64,000 nucleotides of DNA, taken from contig OY970176.1 of NCBI GenBank assembly GCA_963707955.1, forward strand, positions 1,856,001-1,920,000. Reading direction: 5' to 3'. The notes under the pieces were generated by a model. The model ran no database searches, was not told the DNA's origin, and saw only the letters and a list, made by a program, of their open reading frames with translations. This document shows positions 3,608-11,684 of this stretch, in pieces. The DNA comes from Candidatus Bathyarchaeota archaeon (GTDB lineage Archaea > Thermoproteota > Bathyarchaeia > Bathyarchaeales > Bathycorpusculaceae). The translations under genes were made by a program, and so were the position numbers. How positions within the stretch are numbered: position 1 is the first letter of the stretch; each line of letters starts with the position of its first letter.

Positions 3608-6130
3608 CTATGATTCATACCACAATATCTGTCTGGCTTCCAGGGGTATCGCAGCCCCACCAAAATAGGGAATGATGCGTGGCGTATAGTCTTCTGCTGA
3701 CCGACGGGCCGGGATACGGGCACGATAGAGATAGCTATTCGCTGTTCCGGCAGCCTCAGCTACCTCCATGACATGAATTTCGGATTCTCCGTTACCCTGT
3801 GGCTCGGCGAATAGCTGGACCTGCACTGCCTTCGGATCAAGCTTATCAAGATACGCTTCTACCGTCATAATATATTCGTCACCTTCTCTCTGCACACCCA
3901 GCCTTTCGAAGTGTAATTTCTGCCAATGCGTCTCCAGTAACTCTCGCCAGTGGCATAAGCGTACTGACTCATTTGCCCCGTCGGCAGAGCGCTTATGATA
4001 GTTCTTGGCAGCAGTGAGGTATAGTCTATCGACATACTCTCGCAGCATTCGGTTCGTACTGAATTGCGGGGTGAGCTCAGCCATACTCGTCCGCATGCGT
4101 GCTATCCAACCGGTGGGGATGCCTCGGCCATCACGTTCATAGAAGCACGGAATAATCTCCTCCTCGAGGAGACGATAGGTCTCTTCCGCCTCTTGAGCAT
4201 CCCAGTTAAGGTCATCACCATGCTCCTGCCCATCGCCTATAGCCCAGCCAACCTCGGCCCGGTAAGCTTCTGCCCACCACCCATCCCGCTCCGATAAGTT
4301 TAAGCCACCGTTTACCAGAACCTTCATGCCACTAGTACCGCAAGCCTCCCAAGGGCGGCGGGGTGTGTTTATCCAAAGGTCCACGCCTTGTACCAACTGC
4401 TCGGCCAGAGCCATATCGTAGTCAGAGAGGAAGACTACCTTGTCTTGCACATCGGAACGAAGCGAATACTCCCACCAAGCTCGTACCAAGGCTTTGCCTT
4501 CTTCATCGTGAGGGTGGGCTTTACCGGCAATAACGAGTTGAACAGGCCGATGAGGGTTGTTCAGTATTCTGCTTAGCCGATCGGGATCATGGAGCAATAG
4601 ATTTGGTCGTTTGTATGCGGTGAAGCGCCGGGCAAAACCCATTGTGAGAACGCTAGGGTCCAGTAGTTGGTTGGACTGCTTTATGAGTTGCACCGAGGCA
4701 CCTGCTCTCGCTAGCTGACGGCCAAGACGTGCACGTACGTAATGGATCAGTTGCTCTGCTTCTTCCATGCGTAGTTGCCACAACGACTCGTCAGTTATCT
4801 TCTTCAAATCGTCTTTAATCGTATCCATGGTATTTAGCCAACGCTCTTTCCCGCAGGCATTGGTCCAGGTCGTATCGGCCGTTGCAGAGTCCCATGACGG
4901 CATGTGAACACCGTTGGTAACGTGGGTGATTGGTACCTCGCCCTTGGGCCAGCGAGGGAATAATGGTTGGAAAATGCGCCGGTTTACCTCGCCATGAAGA
5001 CGGCTGACACCGTTGACCACTCCTGAACCCCGCATAGCCAGAAAGGCCATGTTGAGTGGTTCCTGTGAGTTGGCAGGATCCTGGCGACCTAACGCTAGAA
5101 GACCGCCCAATCCAATACCCAGTTGATCCGCATAATTTGCCAGATAACGGCTGACCAGTTCTGGTGAGAATCGATCGAAACCCGCCTCAACAGGTGTATG
5201 CGTGGTAAAGATGTTGCCCGCACGAGTTGCGGCCAAAGCCACCTTGAAAGGCTGATGTTCACTCAACATAAAGCTGCGCGCCCGCTCGACCACAGCTAGT
5301 GCCGCATGTCCCTCATTCAGGTGACATACTTCAGGTTGAATACCAATGGCATCAAGCAGTCGCCAGCCTCCGATCCCCAACACAATCTCTTGCTGCAGGC
5401 GCAGTTCCGGTCCTCCACCGTAGAGCTCGCTGGTAATCCCGCGGTCAGGGGGACTGTTGATGGGATCATTACTGTCCAGGAGATACAGCTTCACCCGTCC
5501 CACTATAGCTTTCCAGGCACGCAACCACAAGGCGCCACCGGGAAAATCTATCCTTATCCGGAGCCACTCTCCATTCTGGTCGCGTACTGGCATAACTGGA
5601 AGCTGGCCAGGGTCGTTGTAGGGGTAAAACTCGGTCTGGTCGCCACGGGCATCTACTGTTTGACGGAAATAGCCCTGCTGGTAGAGAAGACCCACTCCAA
5701 CTACTGGAACGCCCAGGTCACTGGCCGCCTTGAGATAATCACCCGCCAGAATCCCGAGACCGCCCGAGTAAATCGGCAGAGCTTCACCAAGCCCATACTC
5801 CATGCAGAAATAGGCTACTTTTAGTGTCGATTGAGAATGAGTCTGTTGAAACCAAGCCTTTTCTTCAATCGCCTCGCGATGTTCTTCCACAAGTTCATCC
5901 ATCAGTCCCCGGAAAGTGAAATCGGTCGCCAGTGCGTTAAGGCGATTCGCTTTAACTGTTTGAAGCAGAAGCCATGGGTTAGAGGTCATACTCCATAATT
6001 CTGGATCAATGTATTTCCATAGCTTGTCAGCGGCGTGATTCCATGACCAGCGAAGATCGAGGGCTAACTCGGCGAGTCCTTCTAGTCCTTCCGGCAGGGC
6101 AGGTAACAGACAATTGCTCGATACAGTCAT
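3608..6130 (-). CDS. glgP: alpha-glucan (glycogen) phosphorylase
   Basis: YSGGLGILAGD, HLNEGH, ARRFTAYKRP, AGKAHP, PLP-lysine motif EACGTSGMK. Confidence 0.96.
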   Translation of the reverse strand: MTVSSNCLLPALPEGLEGLAELALDLRWSWNHAADKLWKYIDPELWSMTSNPWLLLQTVKANRLNALATDFTFRGLMDELVEEHREAIEEKAWFQQTHSQSTLKVAYFCMEYGLGEALPIYSGGLGILAGDYLKAASDLGVPVVGVGLLYQQGYFRQTVDARGDQTEFYPYNDPGQLPVMPVRDQNGEWLRIRIDFPGGALWLRAWKAIVGRVKLYLLDSNDPINSPPDRGITSELYGGGPELRLQQEIVLGIGGWRLLDAIGIQPEVCHLNEGHAALAVVERARSFMLSEHQPFKVALAATRAGNIFTTHTPVEAGFDRFSPELVSRYLANYADQLGIGLGGLLALGRQDPANSQEPLNMAFLAMRGSGVVNGVSRLHGEVNRRIFQPLFPRWPKGEVPITHVTNGVHMPSWDSATADTTWTNACGKERWLNTMDTIKDDLKKITDESLWQLRMEEAEQLIHYVRARLGRQLARAGASVQLIKQSNQLLDPSVLTMGFARRFTAYKRPNLLLHDPDRLSRILNNPHRPVQLVIAGKAHPHDEEGKALVRAWWEYSLRSDVQDKVVFLSDYDMALAEQLVQGVDLWINTPRRPWEACGTSGMKVLVNGGLNLSERDGWWAEAYRAEVGWAIGDGQEHGDDLNWDAQEAEETYRLLEEEIIPCFYERDGRGIPTGWIARMRTSMAELTPQFSTNRMLREYVDRLYLTAAKNYHKRSADGANESVRLCHWRELLETHWQKLHFERLGVQREGDEYIMTVEAYLDKLDPKAVQVQLFAEPQGNGESEIHVMEVAEAAGTANSYLYRARIPARRSAEDYTPRIIPYFGGAAIPLEARQILWYES

Positions 6131-6153
6131 GACAGTCTCCTTACTATTTATCC

Positions 6154-7061
6154 TTACGCGCGCGCGAACTCCGCCATCAAGATCTTGATCCGTTCAGCCA
6201 TTTCTAAAGCCTTTTTGAAGGGTCGTTGCCAAAGATTTCTTCCAAATACCAGACCAGTTGCGCCTGCTTCTAAAGAGATTCTGACCTTTTCTAGGAGTTC
6301 GCCGTCTCCCATTTCTTCTCCCCCAGATATTAGCACCATCGTTTTTCCTGCGGACTTTATTACTCTTTCAAGGGCTTCCTTTGCGTTAAGCTGGAGCGTG
6401 TCGTACGGCTTAGGATACAGTCGACTTCTCTCTTTGTCATATTCGGGAATGTTTATTTTAACCATGTCAGCGCCCAGTTCGTTGGCCACTCGTGCTGCAT
6501 AGTCAACAGCGTAAACGCTATCCCTACCGCCCTTAGCTTCAATCGCCTCGCCTCTTGGATAGGCCCAAACAATAAGGGGCACGCCAAACCTTTGACTATC
6601 CTCTCTAATTTTTGCGAATTGAATGAAATCTTTATCTTGGGCCGGTGAGCCCACAAACAAGGTATATCCAACGGCGTCAGCGCCCAGTCGGACTGCATCC
6701 TCTACTGAGGCGGTTTGAGGTGAAAAGGCATGAGTATCTGGAGGGATTGATGTTTTTCCATTCAGTTTAAGAATCAAAGGGATTTCGCCAGTGAATTCCT
6801 TCATGTATTTTCAGCCAGCCCAATGTGCAAGACTATGGCTGAAAAACTTCCCTCTTTTGCCAATCTCAACTGGTAGGCAGGATCAACGCTTTCTGGATTT
6901 GCAAAAAAATCTCTCGGGCCATGCTCCAATCCATGATCAATTGGCAGAATAAGCGCCATTCCGTTACCCACTCCATGCTCATACAAGATTCGATAAAGCC
7001 TAGTCCTCTTACCAAGATTAAGGTTCAAATCTTTAAGCAAAGGTCTCTTAACTTGAACCAT
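6154..7061 (-). pseudogene. class I (DhnA-type) fructose-bisphosphate aldolase, frameshifted near 6805
   Basis: Two ORFs (6801-7061 with [11 protein letters not shown]; 6154-6804 with WAYPRG, LGADMVK, GLVFGRN); one extra A in GAA AAT AC restores the frame. Confidence 0.85.
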
Positions 7062-7470
7062 TGTCCAAACCGGCTATATTGTGTAGGTCTTCGCATTATA
7101 AGTTTGACGTCCTAGCTTCACAAATCGAACTCATGCGAAGCACATGCTCTTAAAGAAACCTCAATATCAAAGCCGATTTTTGGATTCAGAACAGAGGAGA
7201 CACTCTCAGATTGGTTAGCATGCCAGCGCGTGCGTTGAATAGGGTGGAAAAAGCCAAGCCATAACATTACTCGCAAGATGAGCAGAGACTAAACACAAAA
7301 ATGTAATTTAGCAACAGACTGGCGCGCAATAAGTAGTGTGAAATCAGACTTTGAGAGTGGAAACAATTGGCTCTAATTCTGAGAAACTAATAAATTGGTC
7401 TCTGCCGTACCTGAATGTTAAGGCGTCAGATTTGGTTACTGAAAGGGGAATACATTTTCACGGATGCCAG

Positions 7471-8715
7471 ATGGCAACCACTAATTCCGTGAAACAGCAC
7501 AAACTGAGGAAACTCATGGCGTGGTTGTCAGACAAAGAGGGAAGGGGAATGGAGTTCATCTCGCTCTACATACCTCGGGAGAAATCAATAGATGAGATAG
7601 TCGCAATGCTCAAGGAGGAGTCTGATTCTGTTGTCATGAAATCTGAGAGCGTTAGGGATCGCCTTCAAGACGCTCTCAAGATTGTAATTCAGCGCTTGAA
7701 GCTGCAGAAGGAAATTCCAGAGAATGGGCTCGCAATATTTGCCGGAACCTACGCCGCGAACGATCCGAAAAGCGAAGTTTTGAACGTTGAAGAGCTCGTC
7801 CCACCAGAGCCGATTACCGCCTGTCTTTACGAGGTTGACGACCATTTTCGGTTAGAGCCGCTGAGGGAAATGCTGAGAGACCAAAGAGTTGTGGGGCTTG
7901 TCGCCATAGATTCAAAGGAGGCTAGCTTTGGGATACTCGACGGTGAACGCCTCGAATTAATTGAAAATATCACGTCGGGGATTCCAGGAAAGTCTGGAAA
8001 GGGCGGGATGAGCCAAAGGAGGTACGAAAGAGAACGAGATATGGAACTCACACAATATTTCCACAGGGTTGCGGAGCACGCAGCAAAGGCATTTCTCGAA
8101 AACCATAAAGTCACGGTGTTGATAGTTGGAGGACCTGGTCCAACGAAAGAGGATTTCTTAAAGGGTGATTACCTTCATTATGAGCTAAAGAATGCGCTTC
8201 TTTCCATAGTTGATACGCAATCCGCCGGCAGAGAAGGGGTGAGAGAGGTGCTTGGCAAATCATCTGAGGCACTGAAGAATATGTGTGCGCCAGAGCAGAA
8301 GAGGACCGTGCAGCGCCTTCTGGCAGATGTGGGCAAGCAAGACGGTTTGGCTATTTGCGGCCTAGATTCAGTGTTGAACGCGCTTAAGAATGGTGAAGTA
8401 GAAGTTGTACTAGTGACAGATAGTACAGATATGATTGAAATTGTTGTAATGTGCAAAAGATGCGAACTGTCAAGGGCGAAGATAGTGGATAAGGAGAAGA
8501 AGGTTCAAACTGTACAGGAAATGATATCGCGCCCATGCGAGAAGTGCAACGCGGTTGAATTCGAGGTGGAGGAGAAGGACATAATAGATGTCTTAGAGGA
8601 TGTGGCTTCACAGACAGACGCAAGGGTTGAGGTGATATCTTCAGAGTCGGAAGAAAAAGCAAAGCTCACAGCTTTGGGAGGCTTTGCCGCTCTCTTGAGA
8701 TACAGACCTAGATAA
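7471..8715 (+). CDS. aRF1/eRF1 peptide-chain release factor paralog with degenerate motifs
   Basis: GRGMEFISLYIP, PENGLAIF, PPEPI, GGPGPTK, Zn-ribbon minidomain, GGFAALLRY; GGQ->GGM, NIKS->VMKS. Confidence 0.92.
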   Translation: MATTNSVKQHKLRKLMAWLSDKEGRGMEFISLYIPREKSIDEIVAMLKEESDSVVMKSESVRDRLQDALKIVIQRLKLQKEIPENGLAIFAGTYAANDPKSEVLNVEELVPPEPITACLYEVDDHFRLEPLREMLRDQRVVGLVAIDSKEASFGILDGERLELIENITSGIPGKSGKGGMSQRRYERERDMELTQYFHRVAEHAAKAFLENHKVTVLIVGGPGPTKEDFLKGDYLHYELKNALLSIVDTQSAGREGVREVLGKSSEALKNMCAPEQKRTVQRLLADVGKQDGLAICGLDSVLNALKNGEVEVVLVTDSTDMIEIVVMCKRCELSRAKIVDKEKKVQTVQEMISRPCEKCNAVEFEVEEKDIIDVLEDVASQTDARVEVISSESEEKAKLTALGGFAALLRYRPR

Positions 8716-9073
8716 AGTGGAATGAGAATCGCGAGAACCTTTTCCGGGCGTTTTATCTGGGAACATTTAACTCCGAAACGGGGTCAGAGTTTTGAGATCG
8801 ATCGATTGGAATACGAGTTTATCCGGGAGTCTGGAGAGCTCCTCGCAGGCCTTTGGTGTATGGGGCACTTGATTTAAACAGGTGAAGCGTGTTAGAAGGC
8901 GACGATGAACTCGACGAATGACGATCCAGACGAAAAGAACGAAGCGCAAGAGGAATCTGAGGCGATAGAGCAGGAGCATGAGGTGGACGCCGCTGGAGAT
9001 GTCAAGCCAGTGGAGCGCGCGCGTCAAAAGGATAAAAGTAACAAAATCACATAAATCTTGATGAAGCTGGATC

Positions 9074-10339
9074 ATGTCTAAGATAATGAAGATCAGGTCA
9101 AGGGAAATCCTTGATTCGAGGGGCAACCCAACTGTCGAAGCTGACGTGTTCACAAACGGAGGGTTGTCAAGGGTTTCTGTTCCTTCTGGTGCAAGCACAG
9201 GCGAGTACGAAGCTTTTGAGCTCAGGGATGGCGGGAGGCGTTATTTGGGGAAGGGAGTTCTGAAAGCCGTTAGTAATGTTAACAATGTTATAGCAAAGAA
9301 GATTGTCGGACGGGATTGTACAAAACAGAAAGAGGCAGACGAGTTGATGATAGATTTGGATGGAACTCCTAACAAGTCCAACTTAGGGGCTAATGCTATT
9401 CTCGCGGTCAGCATGGCAATATGCAAAGCGGGAGCTTTGGAGTCGAACTTGTCTCTTTATGAATATATTGCTGAGCTTGTGGATTCAAGAGGTGTGACTT
9501 TGCCTATTCCTCAGATGAACGTGATTAACGGTGGGATGCACGCTGGTATGAAAAATGATTTTCAAGAACACATGATAGTCCCGTTCGGAGCTAAAACTTT
9601 CTCTGACGCTCTAAGAATGTGCTCGGAAACTTATCACACTCTAAAGAAAAACCTGAAAGAAAAGTTTGGAAACTCCGCGATACAAGTTGGTGATGAAGGA
9701 GACTTCGTTCCTCCCTTGAAAAGCGTCGATGAGAGGCTCAAATTCATGTCAGAAGCGGTGGAAGAACTTGGCTACACGAAAGAATTCGCTCTAGCAATAG
9801 ACGCTGCAGCATCTGAATTCTATGGTGAGGGGCGTTATAACATCATGGGAAAAGAATACTCTTCTGCAGAATTAACGGATTTCTATTCTGAGCTGTGTGG
9901 AAAATTCAGGATAGTGTCAGTCGAGGATGGCTTGAGCGAAGACGATTGGGATGGCTGGATTAAGTTGAAATCCGAACTGGGGAAAAAAATTCAGATTGTC
10001 GGAGACGATCTTCTGGTTACGAATGTTGAGAGAATTAGAAAAGCAATTAAATTAGATGCTTGCAATGCTTTGCTACTGAAACTCAATCAGATCGGAACCG
10101 TTACCGAAGCCCTAGATGCTTTTAAATCAGCCAGAAAAGCCGGGTGGAACGTTATCGTTTCTCACAGATCAGGAAGCACTGAGGAAACTTTCTTTGCGGA
10201 TTTGGTTGTTGGCTTAGATGCGGGGCAATTCAAGTATGGCGCTCCCGCAAGAAGTGAGAGGACTTGTAACTATAACCAACTGCTCAGGATTGAAGAAGAA
10301 TTAGAGGGAAAAGCCGAGTATTCAAAGATTTTCGGGTAA
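9074..10339 (+). CDS. eno: enolase
   Basis: ILDSRGNPTVE, VPSGASTG, GDDL, KLNQIG, SHRSG, RSER. Confidence 0.96.
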   Translation: MSKIMKIRSREILDSRGNPTVEADVFTNGGLSRVSVPSGASTGEYEAFELRDGGRRYLGKGVLKAVSNVNNVIAKKIVGRDCTKQKEADELMIDLDGTPNKSNLGANAILAVSMAICKAGALESNLSLYEYIAELVDSRGVTLPIPQMNVINGGMHAGMKNDFQEHMIVPFGAKTFSDALRMCSETYHTLKKNLKEKFGNSAIQVGDEGDFVPPLKSVDERLKFMSEAVEELGYTKEFALAIDAAASEFYGEGRYNIMGKEYSSAELTDFYSELCGKFRIVSVEDGLSEDDWDGWIKLKSELGKKIQIVGDDLLVTNVERIRKAIKLDACNALLLKLNQIGTVTEALDAFKSARKAGWNVIVSHRSGSTEETFFADLVVGLDAGQFKYGAPARSERTCNYNQLLRIEEELEGKAEYSKIFG

Positions 10340-10364
10340 ACCAGATTTTGGAGATGACTTTTGA

Positions 10365-11684
10365 GTGAAAGACACAGAATTTTCTTTTGGAGACGCAATG
10401 ATCCCTCAACAGAGGATCCTCGAAACGGCAAAAATGTTAAGACCTGAGATTAGAAATATGGCGAATGCTATTTCTGGAGGCTACGAAGGTGATATGGCTT
10501 CGCTATATCTGCCTGATGATAGACTCATGTTAGGCAAAGTCAGACAAGTCATAGGCAAGAATCTGCAACTGAAGCCGGTTTACCTCGTTGTCGTGGGCAT
10601 TGGCGGCAGCAATCTAGGGACGATAGCTGTTCAGGAAGCTGTTCTTGGAAAACTGTACAATCAATTGACGGCGTCTACAAAGGTATTGTATGCCGACACA
10701 GTTGATTCAGACGGCATTAACAACATAATCACGCTGGCCAAGCCTGTATTAGAAAGAGGAGGTAACATCGCACTGAATGTGATAAGCAAGTCGGGAACTA
10801 CGACGGAAACGATAGCTAACGCCGAGGTGCTCATAGATTTATTACGACGGCACAAGAAAAATTACAAAAATTGTATTAATGTTACTTCAGATAAAGATTC
10901 AGAACTGTGGAACATTGCTGTCAGAGAAGGATTCAATGTTCTAGAAATACCGAAGAAAGTTGGCGGAAGGTATTCTGTCTTTTCGTCTGTAGGTCTGTTT
11001 CCTCTCGGATTACTGGGAATAAATATTGAACAATTATTGGATGGAGCAAGATCCATCAGAGATGCCTGTATTAATATGAATGTCGAAAAGAATCCCGCAG
11101 CGATAAGTGCAATTGTACAATATCTGCATTACAAGAGCGGAAAGAACATATATGACTTGTTTCTGTTCGCGAATGATTTGGAGTCTTTAGGCAAATGGTA
11201 TAGGCAATTAATGGCTGAAAGCCTAGGCAAAGAGTTTAACAAGAAGGGGGAAAGAGTGAACATTGGCATGACTCCAACTGTCTCAATAGGTTCGACGGAT
11301 TTGCATTCAACGGCGCAACTCTATCTTGGAGGTCCATACGATAAATTCACAACGTTCGTGAGGATCAAAAACAGTCGTTCATGTTTAAAAGTGCCAAGTG
11401 TTGAAGGCTACTCGGAGCTAGTTTCTGAGATTCATGGTAAGAGTCTGATGGATATAATGGATGCGACATTGGAAGGAACAAAGGCGGCTTTTAGGAGCGG
11501 CAAGAGACCATTCATCGAGATAACTCTGCCTGACAAATCGGAGCACTCCGTAGGCCAGTTGTTACAGTTCAAGATGATAGAAACCATGTACTTAGGACGA
11601 TTGTTAGATGTAAATCCTTTTGACCAGCCAAACGTTGAAAGCTACAAAAGGGAAACCCGAAAAATACTGGCAGAACAAAACTGA
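10365..11684 (+). CDS. pgi: glucose-6-phosphate isomerase (PGI superfamily)
   Basis: GIGGSNLG, SKSGTTTET, VGGRYSV, QLMAESLGK, DLHS, FDQPNVE. Confidence 0.94.
   Translation: MKDTEFSFGDAMIPQQRILETAKMLRPEIRNMANAISGGYEGDMASLYLPDDRLMLGKVRQVIGKNLQLKPVYLVVVGIGGSNLGTIAVQEAVLGKLYNQLTASTKVLYADTVDSDGINNIITLAKPVLERGGNIALNVISKSGTTTETIANAEVLIDLLRRHKKNYKNCINVTSDKDSELWNIAVREGFNVLEIPKKVGGRYSVFSSVGLFPLGLLGINIEQLLDGARSIRDACINMNVEKNPAAISAIVQYLHYKSGKNIYDLFLFANDLESLGKWYRQLMAESLGKEFNKKGERVNIGMTPTVSIGSTDLHSTAQLYLGGPYDKFTTFVRIKNSRSCLKVPSVEGYSELVSEIHGKSLMDIMDATLEGTKAAFRSGKRPFIEITLPDKSEHSVGQLLQFKMIETMYLGRLLDVNPFDQPNVESYKRETRKILAEQN

What the first reader, a model, noticed from the sequence alone, without database searches (positions are those of the whole stretch)
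7471..8715. Full-length aRF1 paralog with GGM instead of GGQ and rewritten stop-recognition motifs: candidate ribosome hibernation or decoy factor
Seen: an intact 414-aa three-domain aRF1 with the Zn minidomain. The catalytic loop reads GKSGKGGMSQRRYER (ATG at 8008-8010, two substitutions from CAG, so not a single-base error). NIKS is VMKS (7633-7644), the GT loop is GRGME, and YxCxxxF is YEVDDHF. Established: GGQ is universally required for peptidyl-tRNA hydrolysis, and NIKS/YxCxxxF decode stops. aeRF1-family offshoots that lack these motifs (Pelota, bacterial Balon) act in ribosome rescue or hibernation. Inference: a non-hydrolytic A-site binder, probably still delivered by aEF1A. Its position among carbon-storage and stress genes fits a dormancy or termination-modulating role. 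It remains open-framed while neighbours decay.
Basis: partly seen in the sequence, partly recalled or inferred. Interest (0 to 1): 0.78.

Follow-up and report, generated by a model that had tools for sequence, protein, structure and literature searches.

The report
Mobile release-factor paralog, altered catalytic loop
This archaeon carries, besides its normal protein-release factor, an intact second copy that can no longer read stop codons and has swapped the supposedly universal catalytic glutamine, and this gene turns out to be a whole family that moves between soil archaea.

Summary
Window 7471-8715 (+) encodes an intact 414-aa three-domain aRF1-family protein with GGM, VMKS, YEVDDHF and a four-Cys Zn ribbon. 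The genome also holds a canonical NIKS/YxCxxxF/GGQ aRF1 and a Pelota.

It belongs to a family: 96 of 331 other genomes of the same Bathyarchaeia family carry it, but 0 of 10 in its own genus.

- **Decoding motifs:** lost family-wide; the NIKS region is the fastest-evolving part.
- **Catalytic loop:** K-GG-x-SQRR is invariant with synonymous variation. Only x varies: Q 41, S 51, E 4, A 1, M 1 of 98.
- **Selection:** dN/dS is 0.23-0.35, so it is not a pseudogene.
- **Mobility:** paralog dS is 0.14-0.19 where the canonical aRF1 is saturated, and its neighbours differ between genomes. The "carbon-storage context" argument therefore fails.
- **Origin:** trees place it beside Thaumarchaeota-type aRF1, but an AU test does not reject a local origin.
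- **Parallel case:** GGW/GGM/GGF followed by SQ is the usual loop in Aenigmatarchaeota-type aRF1s that keep their decoding motifs. "Non-hydrolytic" is therefore not a safe inference.

Best reading (0.42): an accessory, stop-codon-independent A-site factor for stalled ribosomes that still works at the peptidyl-transferase centre. Hibernation or decoy roles remain unsupported rivals.

The parts
7471..8715 (+). CDS of the aRF1 paralog (414 aa plus TAA stop)
   Evidence: TIGR03676 scores 378.4 bits (cut-off 234.7), and Pfam finds eRF1_1, eRF1_2 and eRF1_3.
7471..7875 (+). N domain (aa 1-135): eRF1_1 fold with the decoding motifs lost
   Evidence: Pfam eRF1_1 covers aa 18-135. This is the fastest-evolving part of the family, with the NIKS region at 29.5 inferred changes per column against a mean of 14.7.
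7633..7644 (+). VMKS in place of NIKS
   Evidence: Canonical copies read NIKS; the paralogs show no conserved motif here.
7828..7848 (+). YEVDDHF in place of YxCxxxF (Cys replaced by Val)
   Evidence: The Y..vD.HF pattern is common across the paralog family.
7876..8286 (+). M domain (aa 136-272)
   Evidence: Pfam eRF1_2 covers aa 141-270.
7987..8031 (+). Catalytic-loop segment GKSGKGGMSQRRYER (aa 173-187)
   Evidence: K177, G178, G179, S181, Q182, R183, R184 and E186 are invariant in 98 paralogs while their codons vary synonymously.
8008..8010 (+). ATG codon for M180, the position of the canonical catalytic Gln
   Evidence: Family states are Q 41, S 51, E 4, A 1 and M 1 of 98.
8287..8712 (+). 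C domain (aa 273-414) with the C-terminal AALLRY motif
   Evidence: Pfam eRF1_3 covers aa 275-412. L409 and R410 are invariant in the family.
8452..8547 (+). Zn-ribbon insert, CxxC...CxxC (C328, C331, C356, C359)
   Evidence: All four Cys are invariant in 98 paralogs.
7323..7470 (+). Conserved upstream block that travels with the gene. I presume it is promoter plus leader, with an AATAAATT box about 85 nt before the ATG.
   Evidence: Alignment A1 of 9 loci; blastn edges. No Rfam match.
7236..7330 (+). Low-copy interspersed repeat of about 95 nt, ending in GGCGCGC and abutting the left edge of the cassette
   Evidence: The own genome has 3 further partial copies, and two same-genus genomes (G003, G007) have 2 each.

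Best explanation
The gene encodes an accessory, horizontally mobile member of the classical aRF1 clade. It no longer reads stop codons but still inserts a release-factor-type loop into the peptidyl-transferase centre (PTC). I read it as a stop-codon-independent A-site factor for stalled or aberrant ribosomes.

**Shown**
- The three-domain aRF1 fold is intact.
- The decoding motifs are lost across the family.
- The K-GG-x-SQRR loop, the Zn ribbon and the C-terminal LR motif are invariant, with synonymous codon variation.
- The gene is under purifying selection.
- It coexists with a canonical aRF1 and a Pelota.
- It has recently been exchanged between genera.

**Inferred**
- It enters the A site, presumably carried by the single aEF1A.
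- Its N domain accepts the A site irrespective of codon.
- Its M-domain loop reaches the PTC.
- Most likely it still promotes peptidyl-tRNA hydrolysis. This could work through the backbone amide at position x, or through the invariant Gln two residues downstream (GG-x-S-Q). Under this reading the side chain at x (Q, S, E, A, M, W) is tolerated rather than essential.
For: **Family and fold.** TIGR03676 scores 378.4 bits against a cut-off of 234.7. The best structural match is aRF1 4af1 with TM 0.71. The paralogs form one clade with SH-aLRT 100.

**Decoding lost.** The NIKS region shows 29.5 changes per column against a family mean of 14.7. No paralog among 98 keeps NIKS or the Cys of YxCxxxF.

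**Loop kept.**
- Positions 181-190 show 1.0 change per column.
- K177, G178, G179, S181, Q182, R183, R184 and E186 are invariant in 98 of 98 while their codons vary. For example, Q182 is CAA in 71 and CAG in 27.
- Ser at x is written with 5 different codons.
- Burroughs & Aravind (PMC6514570, passages seen) use fixed loop length and conservation to mark active families. [quoted passage not shown]

**Q is probably ancestral.** 41 of 98 members keep GGQ. In the trees with Thaumarchaeota-type relatives, the lineages nearest the base of the paralog clade are GGQ.

**Parallel case.**
- Among 113 clusters of Aenigmatarchaeota-type aRF1, 100 are non-Q: W 69, M 23, F 8.
- 93 of those 100 have Q at +2.
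- All 100 have YxCxxxF, and 85 have NIK[SDN].

**Selection.** dN/dS is 0.23-0.35 in the window's subclade.

**Accessory status.** A canonical aRF1 is present in all 10 holder genomes checked (5 of 5 in each). Pelota is present in the own genome.

**Chemistry.**
- The main-chain amide plays the crucial role in the bacterial system (PMC3467058, passage).
- The Gln side chain has a packing role (PMC5799190, introduction read).
Against: - There is no biochemical or expression evidence of any kind.
- In canonical factors GGQ is reported as universally conserved (PMC2613156 and PMC5799190, passages). From memory, not checked here, Gln substitutions are lethal in vivo in yeast and E. coli.
- Glu and Trp at x are radical changes.
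- In the window's own subclade x is among the fastest sites: 28 inferred changes, about rank 9 of 414. That fits loss of constraint as well as tolerance.
- Q at +2 also occurs together with GGQ in ordinary aRF1s, and 7 of the 100 non-Q Aenigmatarchaeota-type proteins lack it. The "shifted glutamine" idea therefore rests on two lineages.
- I could not test whether the Aenigmatarchaeota proteins are the only aRF1 in their genomes.
- A Pelota is already present, so a rescue role would be partly redundant.
- The gene is patchy: 96 of 331 genomes in the family. A few copies are broken.
Confidence: 0.42

Rival explanations
1. Non-hydrolytic A-site binder. The factor occupies the A site and PTC without releasing the peptide. 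It would then promote subunit splitting like Pelota, or silence or protect ribosomes like Balon.
For: - The window's copy and 57 of 98 family members lack the Gln at x.
- x changes fast in the window's subclade.
- The decoding motifs are lost, as in Pelota.
- Burroughs & Aravind propose non-catalytic A-site roles for aeRF-1 relatives without the Gln (PMC6514570, passage).
Against: - Pelota and the inactive baeRF families have poorly conserved, length-variable loops (PMC6514570 and PMC2613156, passages). Here the loop is fixed in length and is the most conserved segment.
- The Rv2629/Balon model scores 40.8 bits against a cut-off of 320, and Pelota 73 against 177.65.
- Balon chains match the model at TM 0.39-0.44, against 0.71 for aRF1.
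- 41 of 98 members keep GGQ.
- No hibernation-factor neighbour, and no conserved neighbour of any kind, was found.
Confidence: 0.25
2. Conflict-related rescue factor. It would be an accessory, mobile release-factor homolog that frees ribosomes damaged or jammed by toxins, antibiotics or viruses. The analogy is bacterial PrfH, to which it is not related by descent.
For: - Recent transfer between genera: paralog dS is 0.14-0.19 where the canonical aRF1 is saturated.
- Patchy distribution: 96 of 331 in the family and 0 of 10 in the own genus.
- The N domain evolves fast and x turns over fast.
- dN/dS is 0.23-0.35, against about 0.04 for the canonical copy.
- From the abstract of PMC12829566 (listing), PrfH is a release-factor homolog that rescues damaged ribosomes.
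Against: - There are no defence, toxin or RNA-repair neighbours. The neighbours are ordinary housekeeping genes and vary between loci.
- No close relative was found on viral contigs.
- Fast evolution may simply reflect relaxed constraint.
Confidence: 0.18
3. A terminator with altered specificity. It would still read a particular codon or context through a remodelled N domain.
For: The eRF1_1 fold is kept. The Y..vD.HF pattern is fairly conserved. Ciliate eRF1 paralogues with variant NIKS motifs exist (PMC2613156, passage).
Against: The NIKS loop region is the most variable part of the protein and carries no family consensus. No PylS was found (best 26.9 bits against a cut-off of 178). The canonical aRF1 is present.
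Confidence: 0.07
4. A functionless passenger on its way to decay.
For: - The gene is patchy.
- Some copies are broken: G411 has TGA and TAA, G447:C280 has TAG, and L048 and L050 are split.
- dN/dS is raised compared with the canonical copy.
Against: - dN/dS is well below 1 in all 15 pairs computed.
- 42 columns are invariant across 98 species-level copies that fall to 52% identity.
- The loop and the Zn-ribbon Cys are kept with synonymous variation.
- 98 full-length open copies were recovered.
Confidence: 0.08

Closest known systems
Classical archaeal aRF1 (e.g. PDB 4af1; TIGR03676)
   Same: Same three domains, the Zn-ribbon insert, the GG loop followed by an Arg-rich helix, and the C-terminal LRY motif. 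It scores above the family cut-off.
   Different: NIKS and the Cys of YxCxxxF are lost. Gln at the GGQ position is replaced in 57 of 98 members. It is accessory, patchy and horizontally mobile, and evolves about six times faster (dN/dS 0.25 against 0.04).
Second aRF1 copies in other archaea (Methanosarcina aRF1-2)
   Same: An extra aRF1 gene beside the main one. PMC12626013 (passage) reports two copies in 4.3% of sampled archaeal genomes.
   Different: That paper treats the copies as duplications linked to genome size and does not discuss motif loss in the passage I read. I did not examine Methanosarcina aRF1-2 here. Its Table S9 (a supplement, not seen) may list Bathyarchaeia.
Pelota / Dom34
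   Same: An aeRF1-superfamily A-site factor without stop-codon reading, delivered by aEF1A in archaea (PMC3467058, passages).
   Different: Pelota has an Sm-like N domain and a truncated, unconserved M-domain tip. This protein keeps the eRF1_1 fold and a strictly conserved loop, and the genome has its own Pelota.
Balon / Rv2629-family hibernation factors and baeRF families
   Same: Distant aeRF1 relatives proposed or shown to sit in the A site without releasing peptide.
   Different: They are bacterial. The model score is far below cut-off (40.8 against 320). The structural match is weaker (TM 0.39-0.44). There is no hibernation-factor neighbour.
aVLRF-1 / acVLRF-1 (Vms1-like release factors)
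   Same: They carry the same GG-x-S-Q loop motif as given by Burroughs & Aravind (PMC6514570, passage).
   Different: aVLRF-1 lacks the C-terminal domain and has an N-terminal coiled coil. acVLRF-1 lacks the N domain. The NCBIfam acVLRF1 model scores 38 bits against a cut-off of 125. The Pfam acVLRF1 hit is no better than for the canonical aRF1 (44 against 38 bits).
Aenigmatarchaeota-type aRF1 with GGW/GGM/GGF-SQ
   Same: The same non-Gln residues (M, W) at x, followed by SQ.
   Different: Those proteins keep NIKS-like and YxCxxxF motifs and are only about 30-35% identical. They are an independent lineage.

Membership tests
Classical aRF1/eRF1 (class-1 release factor) | Three-domain architecture eRF1_1 / eRF1_2 / eRF1_3 and an HMM score above the curated cut-off | tested here: met
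   Pfam E-values are 1.6e-12, 1.2e-34 and 3.7e-16. TIGR03676 scores 378.4 against 234.7. The fold matches 4af1 at TM 0.71.
Classical aRF1/eRF1 (class-1 release factor) | NIKS decoding motif | tested here: not met
   The window reads VMKS. There is no consensus in 98 paralogs, and this is the most variable region.
Classical aRF1/eRF1 (class-1 release factor) | YxCxxxF decoding motif | tested here: not met
   The window reads YEVDDHF, with Cys replaced by Val.
Classical aRF1/eRF1 (class-1 release factor) | GGQ catalytic tripeptide | tested here: not met
   The window reads GGM (ATG 8008-8010). GGQ is kept in 41 of 98 family members.
Classical aRF1/eRF1 (class-1 release factor) | Stop-codon-dependent peptide release | not testable with these tools
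   This needs a reconstituted release assay.
Pelota / Dom34 | Sm-like N domain, truncated unconserved M-domain tip, and a family HMM score above cut-off | tested here: not met
   TIGR00111 scores 73 bits against 177.65. The eRF1_1 N domain is present and the loop is conserved. The real Pelota lies elsewhere in the genome.
Balon / Rv2629-family ribosome hibernation factor | Family HMM score above cut-off and a Balon-like structure | tested here: not met
   NF052289 scores 40.8 bits against 320. Balon chains match at TM 0.39-0.44, below aRF1 and eRF1.
aVLRF-1 / acVLRF-1 | GGxSQ loop motif | tested here: met
   GG-x-S-Q is present in 98 of 98 paralogs. The motif is as stated in PMC6514570.
aVLRF-1 / acVLRF-1 | Domain architecture: aVLRF-1 has no C-terminal domain and has an N-terminal coiled coil; acVLRF-1 has no N domain. 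Also a family HMM score above cut-off. | tested here: not met
   The full N, M and C domains are present. NF041024 scores 38 bits against 125. PF18859 also hits the canonical aRF1 (38.2 bits), so it does not discriminate.

The most novel reading that the evidence does not exclude
GGQ is not the only working release loop in archaea. In this reading a GG-x-SQ configuration does the job, with the catalytic role taken by the backbone at x or by the Gln two residues downstream, and x free to be W, M, F, S, E or A.

The Bathyarchaeia paralog family would then have caught the transition in progress: GGQ-SQ, then GGS-SQ, then GGE/A/M/W-SQ. Aenigmatarchaeota-type aRF1s would show the end state in a factor that still reads stop codons.

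The window's protein would therefore be an active, codon-independent peptidyl-tRNA hydrolase carried on a mobile gene cassette.
Probability: 0.3. Interest if true: 0.85.

Novelty: new variant of a known kind. Interest (0 to 1): 0.72.

Why it matters
GGQ is treated as the one universal feature of peptide release. Two results here make that rule directly testable.

- A large natural family keeps the whole loop but lets the Gln position run through Q, S, E, A, M and W.
- A second archaeal lineage has the same substitutions in factors that retain stop-codon motifs.

Together these supply a ready-made mutational series for asking what the Gln side chain really does.

The family also points to an unrecognised accessory player in archaeal ribosome rescue or quality control. 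How peptidyl-tRNA is released from stalled archaeal ribosomes is poorly known. Finally, it shows that a core translation factor can behave as a horizontally mobile accessory gene.

Tried and rejected
- **Carbon-storage or stress context as a clue.** Rejected. Glucan phosphorylase, aldolase, enolase, PGI and PFK flank the gene only in this window.
- **Pyrrolysine link.** No PylS was found.
- **A dedicated GTPase partner.** Only one full aEF1A is present.
- **Complex prediction of aEF1A with the paralog's M and C domains.** No verdict (score 0.02). This is neither for nor against binding.
- **Expression.** No RNA holder was listed.
- **Viral carriage.** No close relative was found on viral contigs with the protein alone. 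With the alignment, 22 loci came back at 21-42% identity, some with giant-virus record names. I did not analyse these further.
- **Intein-bearing versions of the paralog.** None was found among 63 longer proteins. All intein-bearing hits I parsed are the NIKS type.
- **Pfam acVLRF1 and baeRF_family10 hits as evidence for a VLRF relationship.** Rejected, because the canonical aRF1 scores about the same.
- **x as the most variable site of the whole family.** Rejected. It shows 8 changes against a column mean of 14.7, and is fast only in the window's subclade.
- **Passage through a TAG codon at x.** No evidence was found. The route Q(CAG) to E(GAG) to A(GCG) to S(TCG) is fully populated by observed states.
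- **Single-sequence AlphaFold model.** Unusable, with pLDDT 37.
- **Upstream leader and flanks.** Rfam, tRNA and promoter/terminator scans gave nothing useful.
- **Papers not held.** PMC2175178, PMC60236 and PMC3923520. Statements about Gln mutants in vitro therefore rest on secondary passages, one reference title and recall.
Full report
**1.

- Window 7471-8715 (+) is an open 414-codon frame ending in TAA.
- It reads GRGME (aa 24-28), VMKS (7633-7644), YEVDDHF (7828-7848) and GKSGKGGMSQRRYER, with M180 encoded by ATG at 8008-8010. A CxxC...CxxC insert lies at aa 328-359.
- Pfam finds eRF1 domains 1, 2 and 3.
- The NCBIfam aRF1 model scores 378.4 bits against a cut-off of 234.7. Pelota (73 against 177.65), the Rv2629/Balon family (40.8 against 320) and acVLRF1 (38 against 125) all stay far below their cut-offs.
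- An AlphaFold2 model built on a 60-row alignment has mean pLDDT 84.7, with the loop at 169-180 and a helix starting at S181.
- Its best PDB match is archaeal aRF1 4af1 (E 1.9e-39, TM 0.71). Balon chains reach TM 0.39-0.44 and Pelota less.

**2. It is an extra copy**

- The single-contig genome (2.35 Mb) also holds a canonical aRF1 at 1017561-1018781 (547.2 bits) that reads NIKS, YRCDARF and GGQ.
- It holds a Pelota (274.7 bits), one full aEF1A, and no PylS above cut-off.

**3. It is a family, and a patchy one**

- A search of the 5.8-billion-protein collection listed 120 clusters at 82-93% identity.
- 32 species-level genomes whose record titles mostly read Bathyarchaeia or Bathyarchaeota carry full-length copies at 62-93% identity.
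- None of the 10 other species of the window's own genus has it.
- In its family, 96 of 331 other genomes have it. It is concentrated in one genus (76 of 120) and occurs in 10 of 70 genera (this count includes the window's own).
- In an even sample of the class, 30 of 400 other genomes have it. All 30 lie in two families (28 of 103 and 2 of 18), with none in the others.
- All 10 holder genomes I checked also have a canonical aRF1 (5 of 5 in each).
- A few copies are broken: G411 has TGA and TAA, G447:C280 has TAG, and L048 and L050 are split. Some of these breaks may be assembly errors.

**4. What is conserved and what is not**

I collected 98 distinct full-length paralogs (52-93% identical to the window's) and 12 canonical Bathyarchaeia aRF1s. 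Rows shorter than 380 aa were left out. The paralogs form one clade with SH-aLRT 100.

- No paralog has NIKS or the Cys of YxCxxxF.
- The NIKS region is the most variable stretch, at 29.5 inferred changes per column against a mean of 14.7.
- Positions 181-190 show only 1.0 change per column.
- K177, G178, G179, S181, Q182, R183, R184 and E186 are invariant while their codons vary. For example, Q182 is CAA in 71 and CAG in 27.
- The four Zn-ribbon Cys and the C-terminal LR are also invariant.
- Only position 180 inside the loop varies: S 51, Q 41, E 4, A 1, M 1.
- Ser at 180 is written with five codons: TCA 30, TCG 17, TCC 2, TCT 1, AGT 1. That indicates selection for Ser in those lineages.
- On the family tree the state at 180 changes at least 9 times. 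At least 3 changes of the Q label are forced by well-supported branches.
- Over the whole family, position 180 is not unusually variable: 8 changes against a mean of 14.7.
- In the window's young subclade it is. The 121 clusters (query included) read Q 46, S 36, E 16, W 13, M 9, A 1. That gives 28 inferred changes, about rank 9 of 414 columns, against a mean of 6.7. Recombination among close relatives may inflate this count.

**5. Selection**

- Pairwise Nei-Gojobori dN/dS between the window's gene and 11 close relatives, plus 4 further pairs, is 0.23-0.35 overall.
- All three domains are below 1, with the C domain reaching 0.68 in one pair that has very low dS.
- For the canonical aRF1, the one pair with measurable dS gives dN/dS of about 0.04: dN 0.064 and dS 1.46.
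- The gene is therefore constrained but evolves much faster than the housekeeping copy. It is not a pseudogene.

**6. The gene moves**

- For five holder genomes from three other genera, the canonical aRF1 is 71-89% identical in protein to the window's. Its synonymous sites are near or at saturation (pS 0.64-0.84).
- For the same five genomes the paralog is 88-93% identical, with dS of 0.14-0.19.
- DNA homology to other loci runs only from about window 7278-7382 to about 8711-8927, at 85-94% identity, with unrelated flanks.
- Neighbouring genes differ in nearly all of 32 loci. Only one group of six loci shares a context, and that context differs from the window's.
- The conserved block includes about 150 nt upstream of the ATG. 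The downstream edge varies from locus to locus.
- Immediately to the left (7236-7330) lies a low-copy repeat of about 95 nt that ends in GGCGCGC.
- I found no tRNA gene nearby and no close relative on viral contigs. I did not search for an integrase. The transfer mechanism is unknown.
- The glycolysis and glycogen neighbourhood of the window is thus incidental.

**7. Origin**

- The closest proteins outside the family are not Bathyarchaeia aRF1s (38-43% identity). They are aRF1s at 46-54% identity, some with NCBI names reading Thaumarchaeota or Nitrososphaerales.
- In trees under LG+G4 (101 rows) and LG+C20 PMSF (44 rows), the paralogs group with these with SH-aLRT 100, apart from the canonical Bathyarchaeia clade.
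- An AU test does not reject the alternative in which paralogs and Bathyarchaeia canonical copies form one clade (p 0.214).
- A foreign origin is therefore favoured but not shown.
- With these relatives as outgroup, the lineages nearest the base of the paralog clade are GGQ. Q is then ancestral and S derived.

**8. A side result that bears on function**

- Many archaeal aRF1s carry an intein inserted exactly between the Q of GGQ and the following Ser: GGQ|C...HN|S.
- More to the point, one group of aRF1s, some named Aenigmatarchaeota by NCBI, usually lacks the Gln. Of 113 clusters shorter than 450 aa, 63 read GGW-SQ, 22 GGM-SQ, 8 GGF-SQ, 6 GGW-SA, 1 GGM-SS and 13 GGQ.
- All 100 non-Q proteins have YxCxxxF, and 85 have NIK[S/D/N]. 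The other 15 read NIKL, NIKA or NVK[S/D].
- Intein-bearing versions exist as well, including GGM|C...HN|SQRRYDR.
- So the GGM-SQ loop of the window's protein is normal in factors that look fully able to read stop codons.
- I could not test whether those are the only aRF1s in their genomes. One Aenigmatarchaeota-named protein in the same list reads GGQ-SA.
- In six literature searches I found no paper describing either the Bathyarchaeia family or the non-Gln aRF1s.
- PMC12626013 (passage read) reports two aRF1 copies in 4.3% of archaeal genomes without discussing motifs. Its Table S9 is a supplement that I could not see.

**9. How it most likely works**

The pattern is a decoding head let go, a PTC loop held fixed in length and sequence, and the Zn ribbon and C-terminal motif kept. 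This is not what inactive relatives show. Pelota and most baeRF families have unconserved, length-variable loops (PMC6514570 and PMC2613156, passages).

Three papers bear on the chemistry:
- The catalytic group is the backbone amide of the Gln residue (PMC6742477 and PMC3467058, passages).
- The Gln side chain has a packing role (PMC5799190, introduction).
- A cited title states that mutating the Gln of human eRF1 does not abolish activity (reference list of PMC2613156; the paper itself was not seen).

[quoted passage not shown] However, Q at +2 also occurs with GGQ in ordinary aRF1s.

I therefore favour a stop-codon-independent A-site factor that still acts at the PTC, probably releasing peptide from stalled ribosomes (0.42). 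The rivals are:
- a non-hydrolytic binder (0.25);
- a conflict-linked rescue factor (0.18), suggested by mobility and fast evolution but without supporting neighbours;
- an altered-specificity terminator (0.07);
- a decaying passenger (0.08).

Delivery by aEF1A is inferred from the conserved C domain only. The complex prediction gave no verdict.

**10. Verdict**

The finding is real. It is a new variant of a known kind: a mobile, decoding-defective aRF1 lineage with a conserved but Gln-variable release loop.

Noticed in passing
Proteins P0201, P0333-P0451, P0139, P0145, P0159, P0167 and others: aRF1s with intact NIKS-like and YxCxxxF motifs, some named Aenigmatarchaeota by NCBI, mostly lack the Gln of GGQ. 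Of 113 clusters, 63 read GGW-SQ, 22 GGM-SQ, 8 GGF-SQ, 6 GGW-SA, 1 GGM-SS and 13 GGQ. I could not establish whether they are the sole release factor in their genomes.
   Followed up: partly
Proteins P0122, P0123, P0130, P0164, P0170, P0274-P0332: Many archaeal aRF1s carry an intein inserted exactly after GGQ (GGQ|C...HN|S). A second insertion site lies near the YxCxxxF motif (query position about 118/119). Some proteins hold two inserts and reach 1452 aa. Source names include Thaumarchaeota, Nitrososphaerales, Nanohaloarchaeota, Pacearchaeota and Nanoarchaeota.
   Followed up: partly
window 7236-7330; also G000:C1:1672472-1672548, 1535457-1535548 and 1830380-1830402; L151, L153 (G003); L152, L155 (G007): A low-copy interspersed repeat of about 95 nt ending in TTTAGCAAC..CTGGCGCGC abuts the left edge of the mobile aRF1 cassette. 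In L020 the right edge of homology also falls at a CGCGCGCGC run. This may mark a recombination site.
   Followed up: partly
window 6154-7061 (-): The DeoC/LacD-family class I aldolase gene is split into an 86-aa and a 216-aa ORF that overlap by 4 nt at 6801-6804. This is either a frameshift or a sequencing error next to a short A run. It is the only decaying neighbour I saw.
   Followed up: no
window 5600-10400 against same-genus genomes: Apart from the short repeat, none of this 4.8 kb stretch (aldolase, paralog, enolase) matches the DNA of the 10 other species of the genus. The whole surrounding segment may be divergent or itself acquired.
   Followed up: no
G000:C1:674556-675137 (L007 1399-2094): A 231-aa protein with only a weak eRF1_3-like C-terminal match (Pfam 22.1 bits, below cut-off; 30.1 bits to the Pelota model). 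It may be a fourth, very distant member of the superfamily.
   Followed up: no
G000:C1:865861-866115 (L149): An isolated fragment resembling the C-terminal ~87 residues of aEF1A, with one TAA inside.
   Followed up: no
P0161 (NCBI WP_455278356.1, labelled [Eubacterium] cellulosolvens): An aRF1-family protein reading GGE-SARRFER, without NIKS or YxCxxxF. It is filed under a bacterial name, so it is probably an archaeal sequence in a bacterial record and another divergent aRF1 paralog.
   Followed up: no
Genomes G434, G447, G451, G452, G458, G480, G382, G483, G500: Nine genomes hold two copies of the paralog. In the pairs I read (L063/L132, L071/L124, L106/L107, L133/L138, L087/L110, L023/L035), both copies share the same state at x.
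   Followed up: partly
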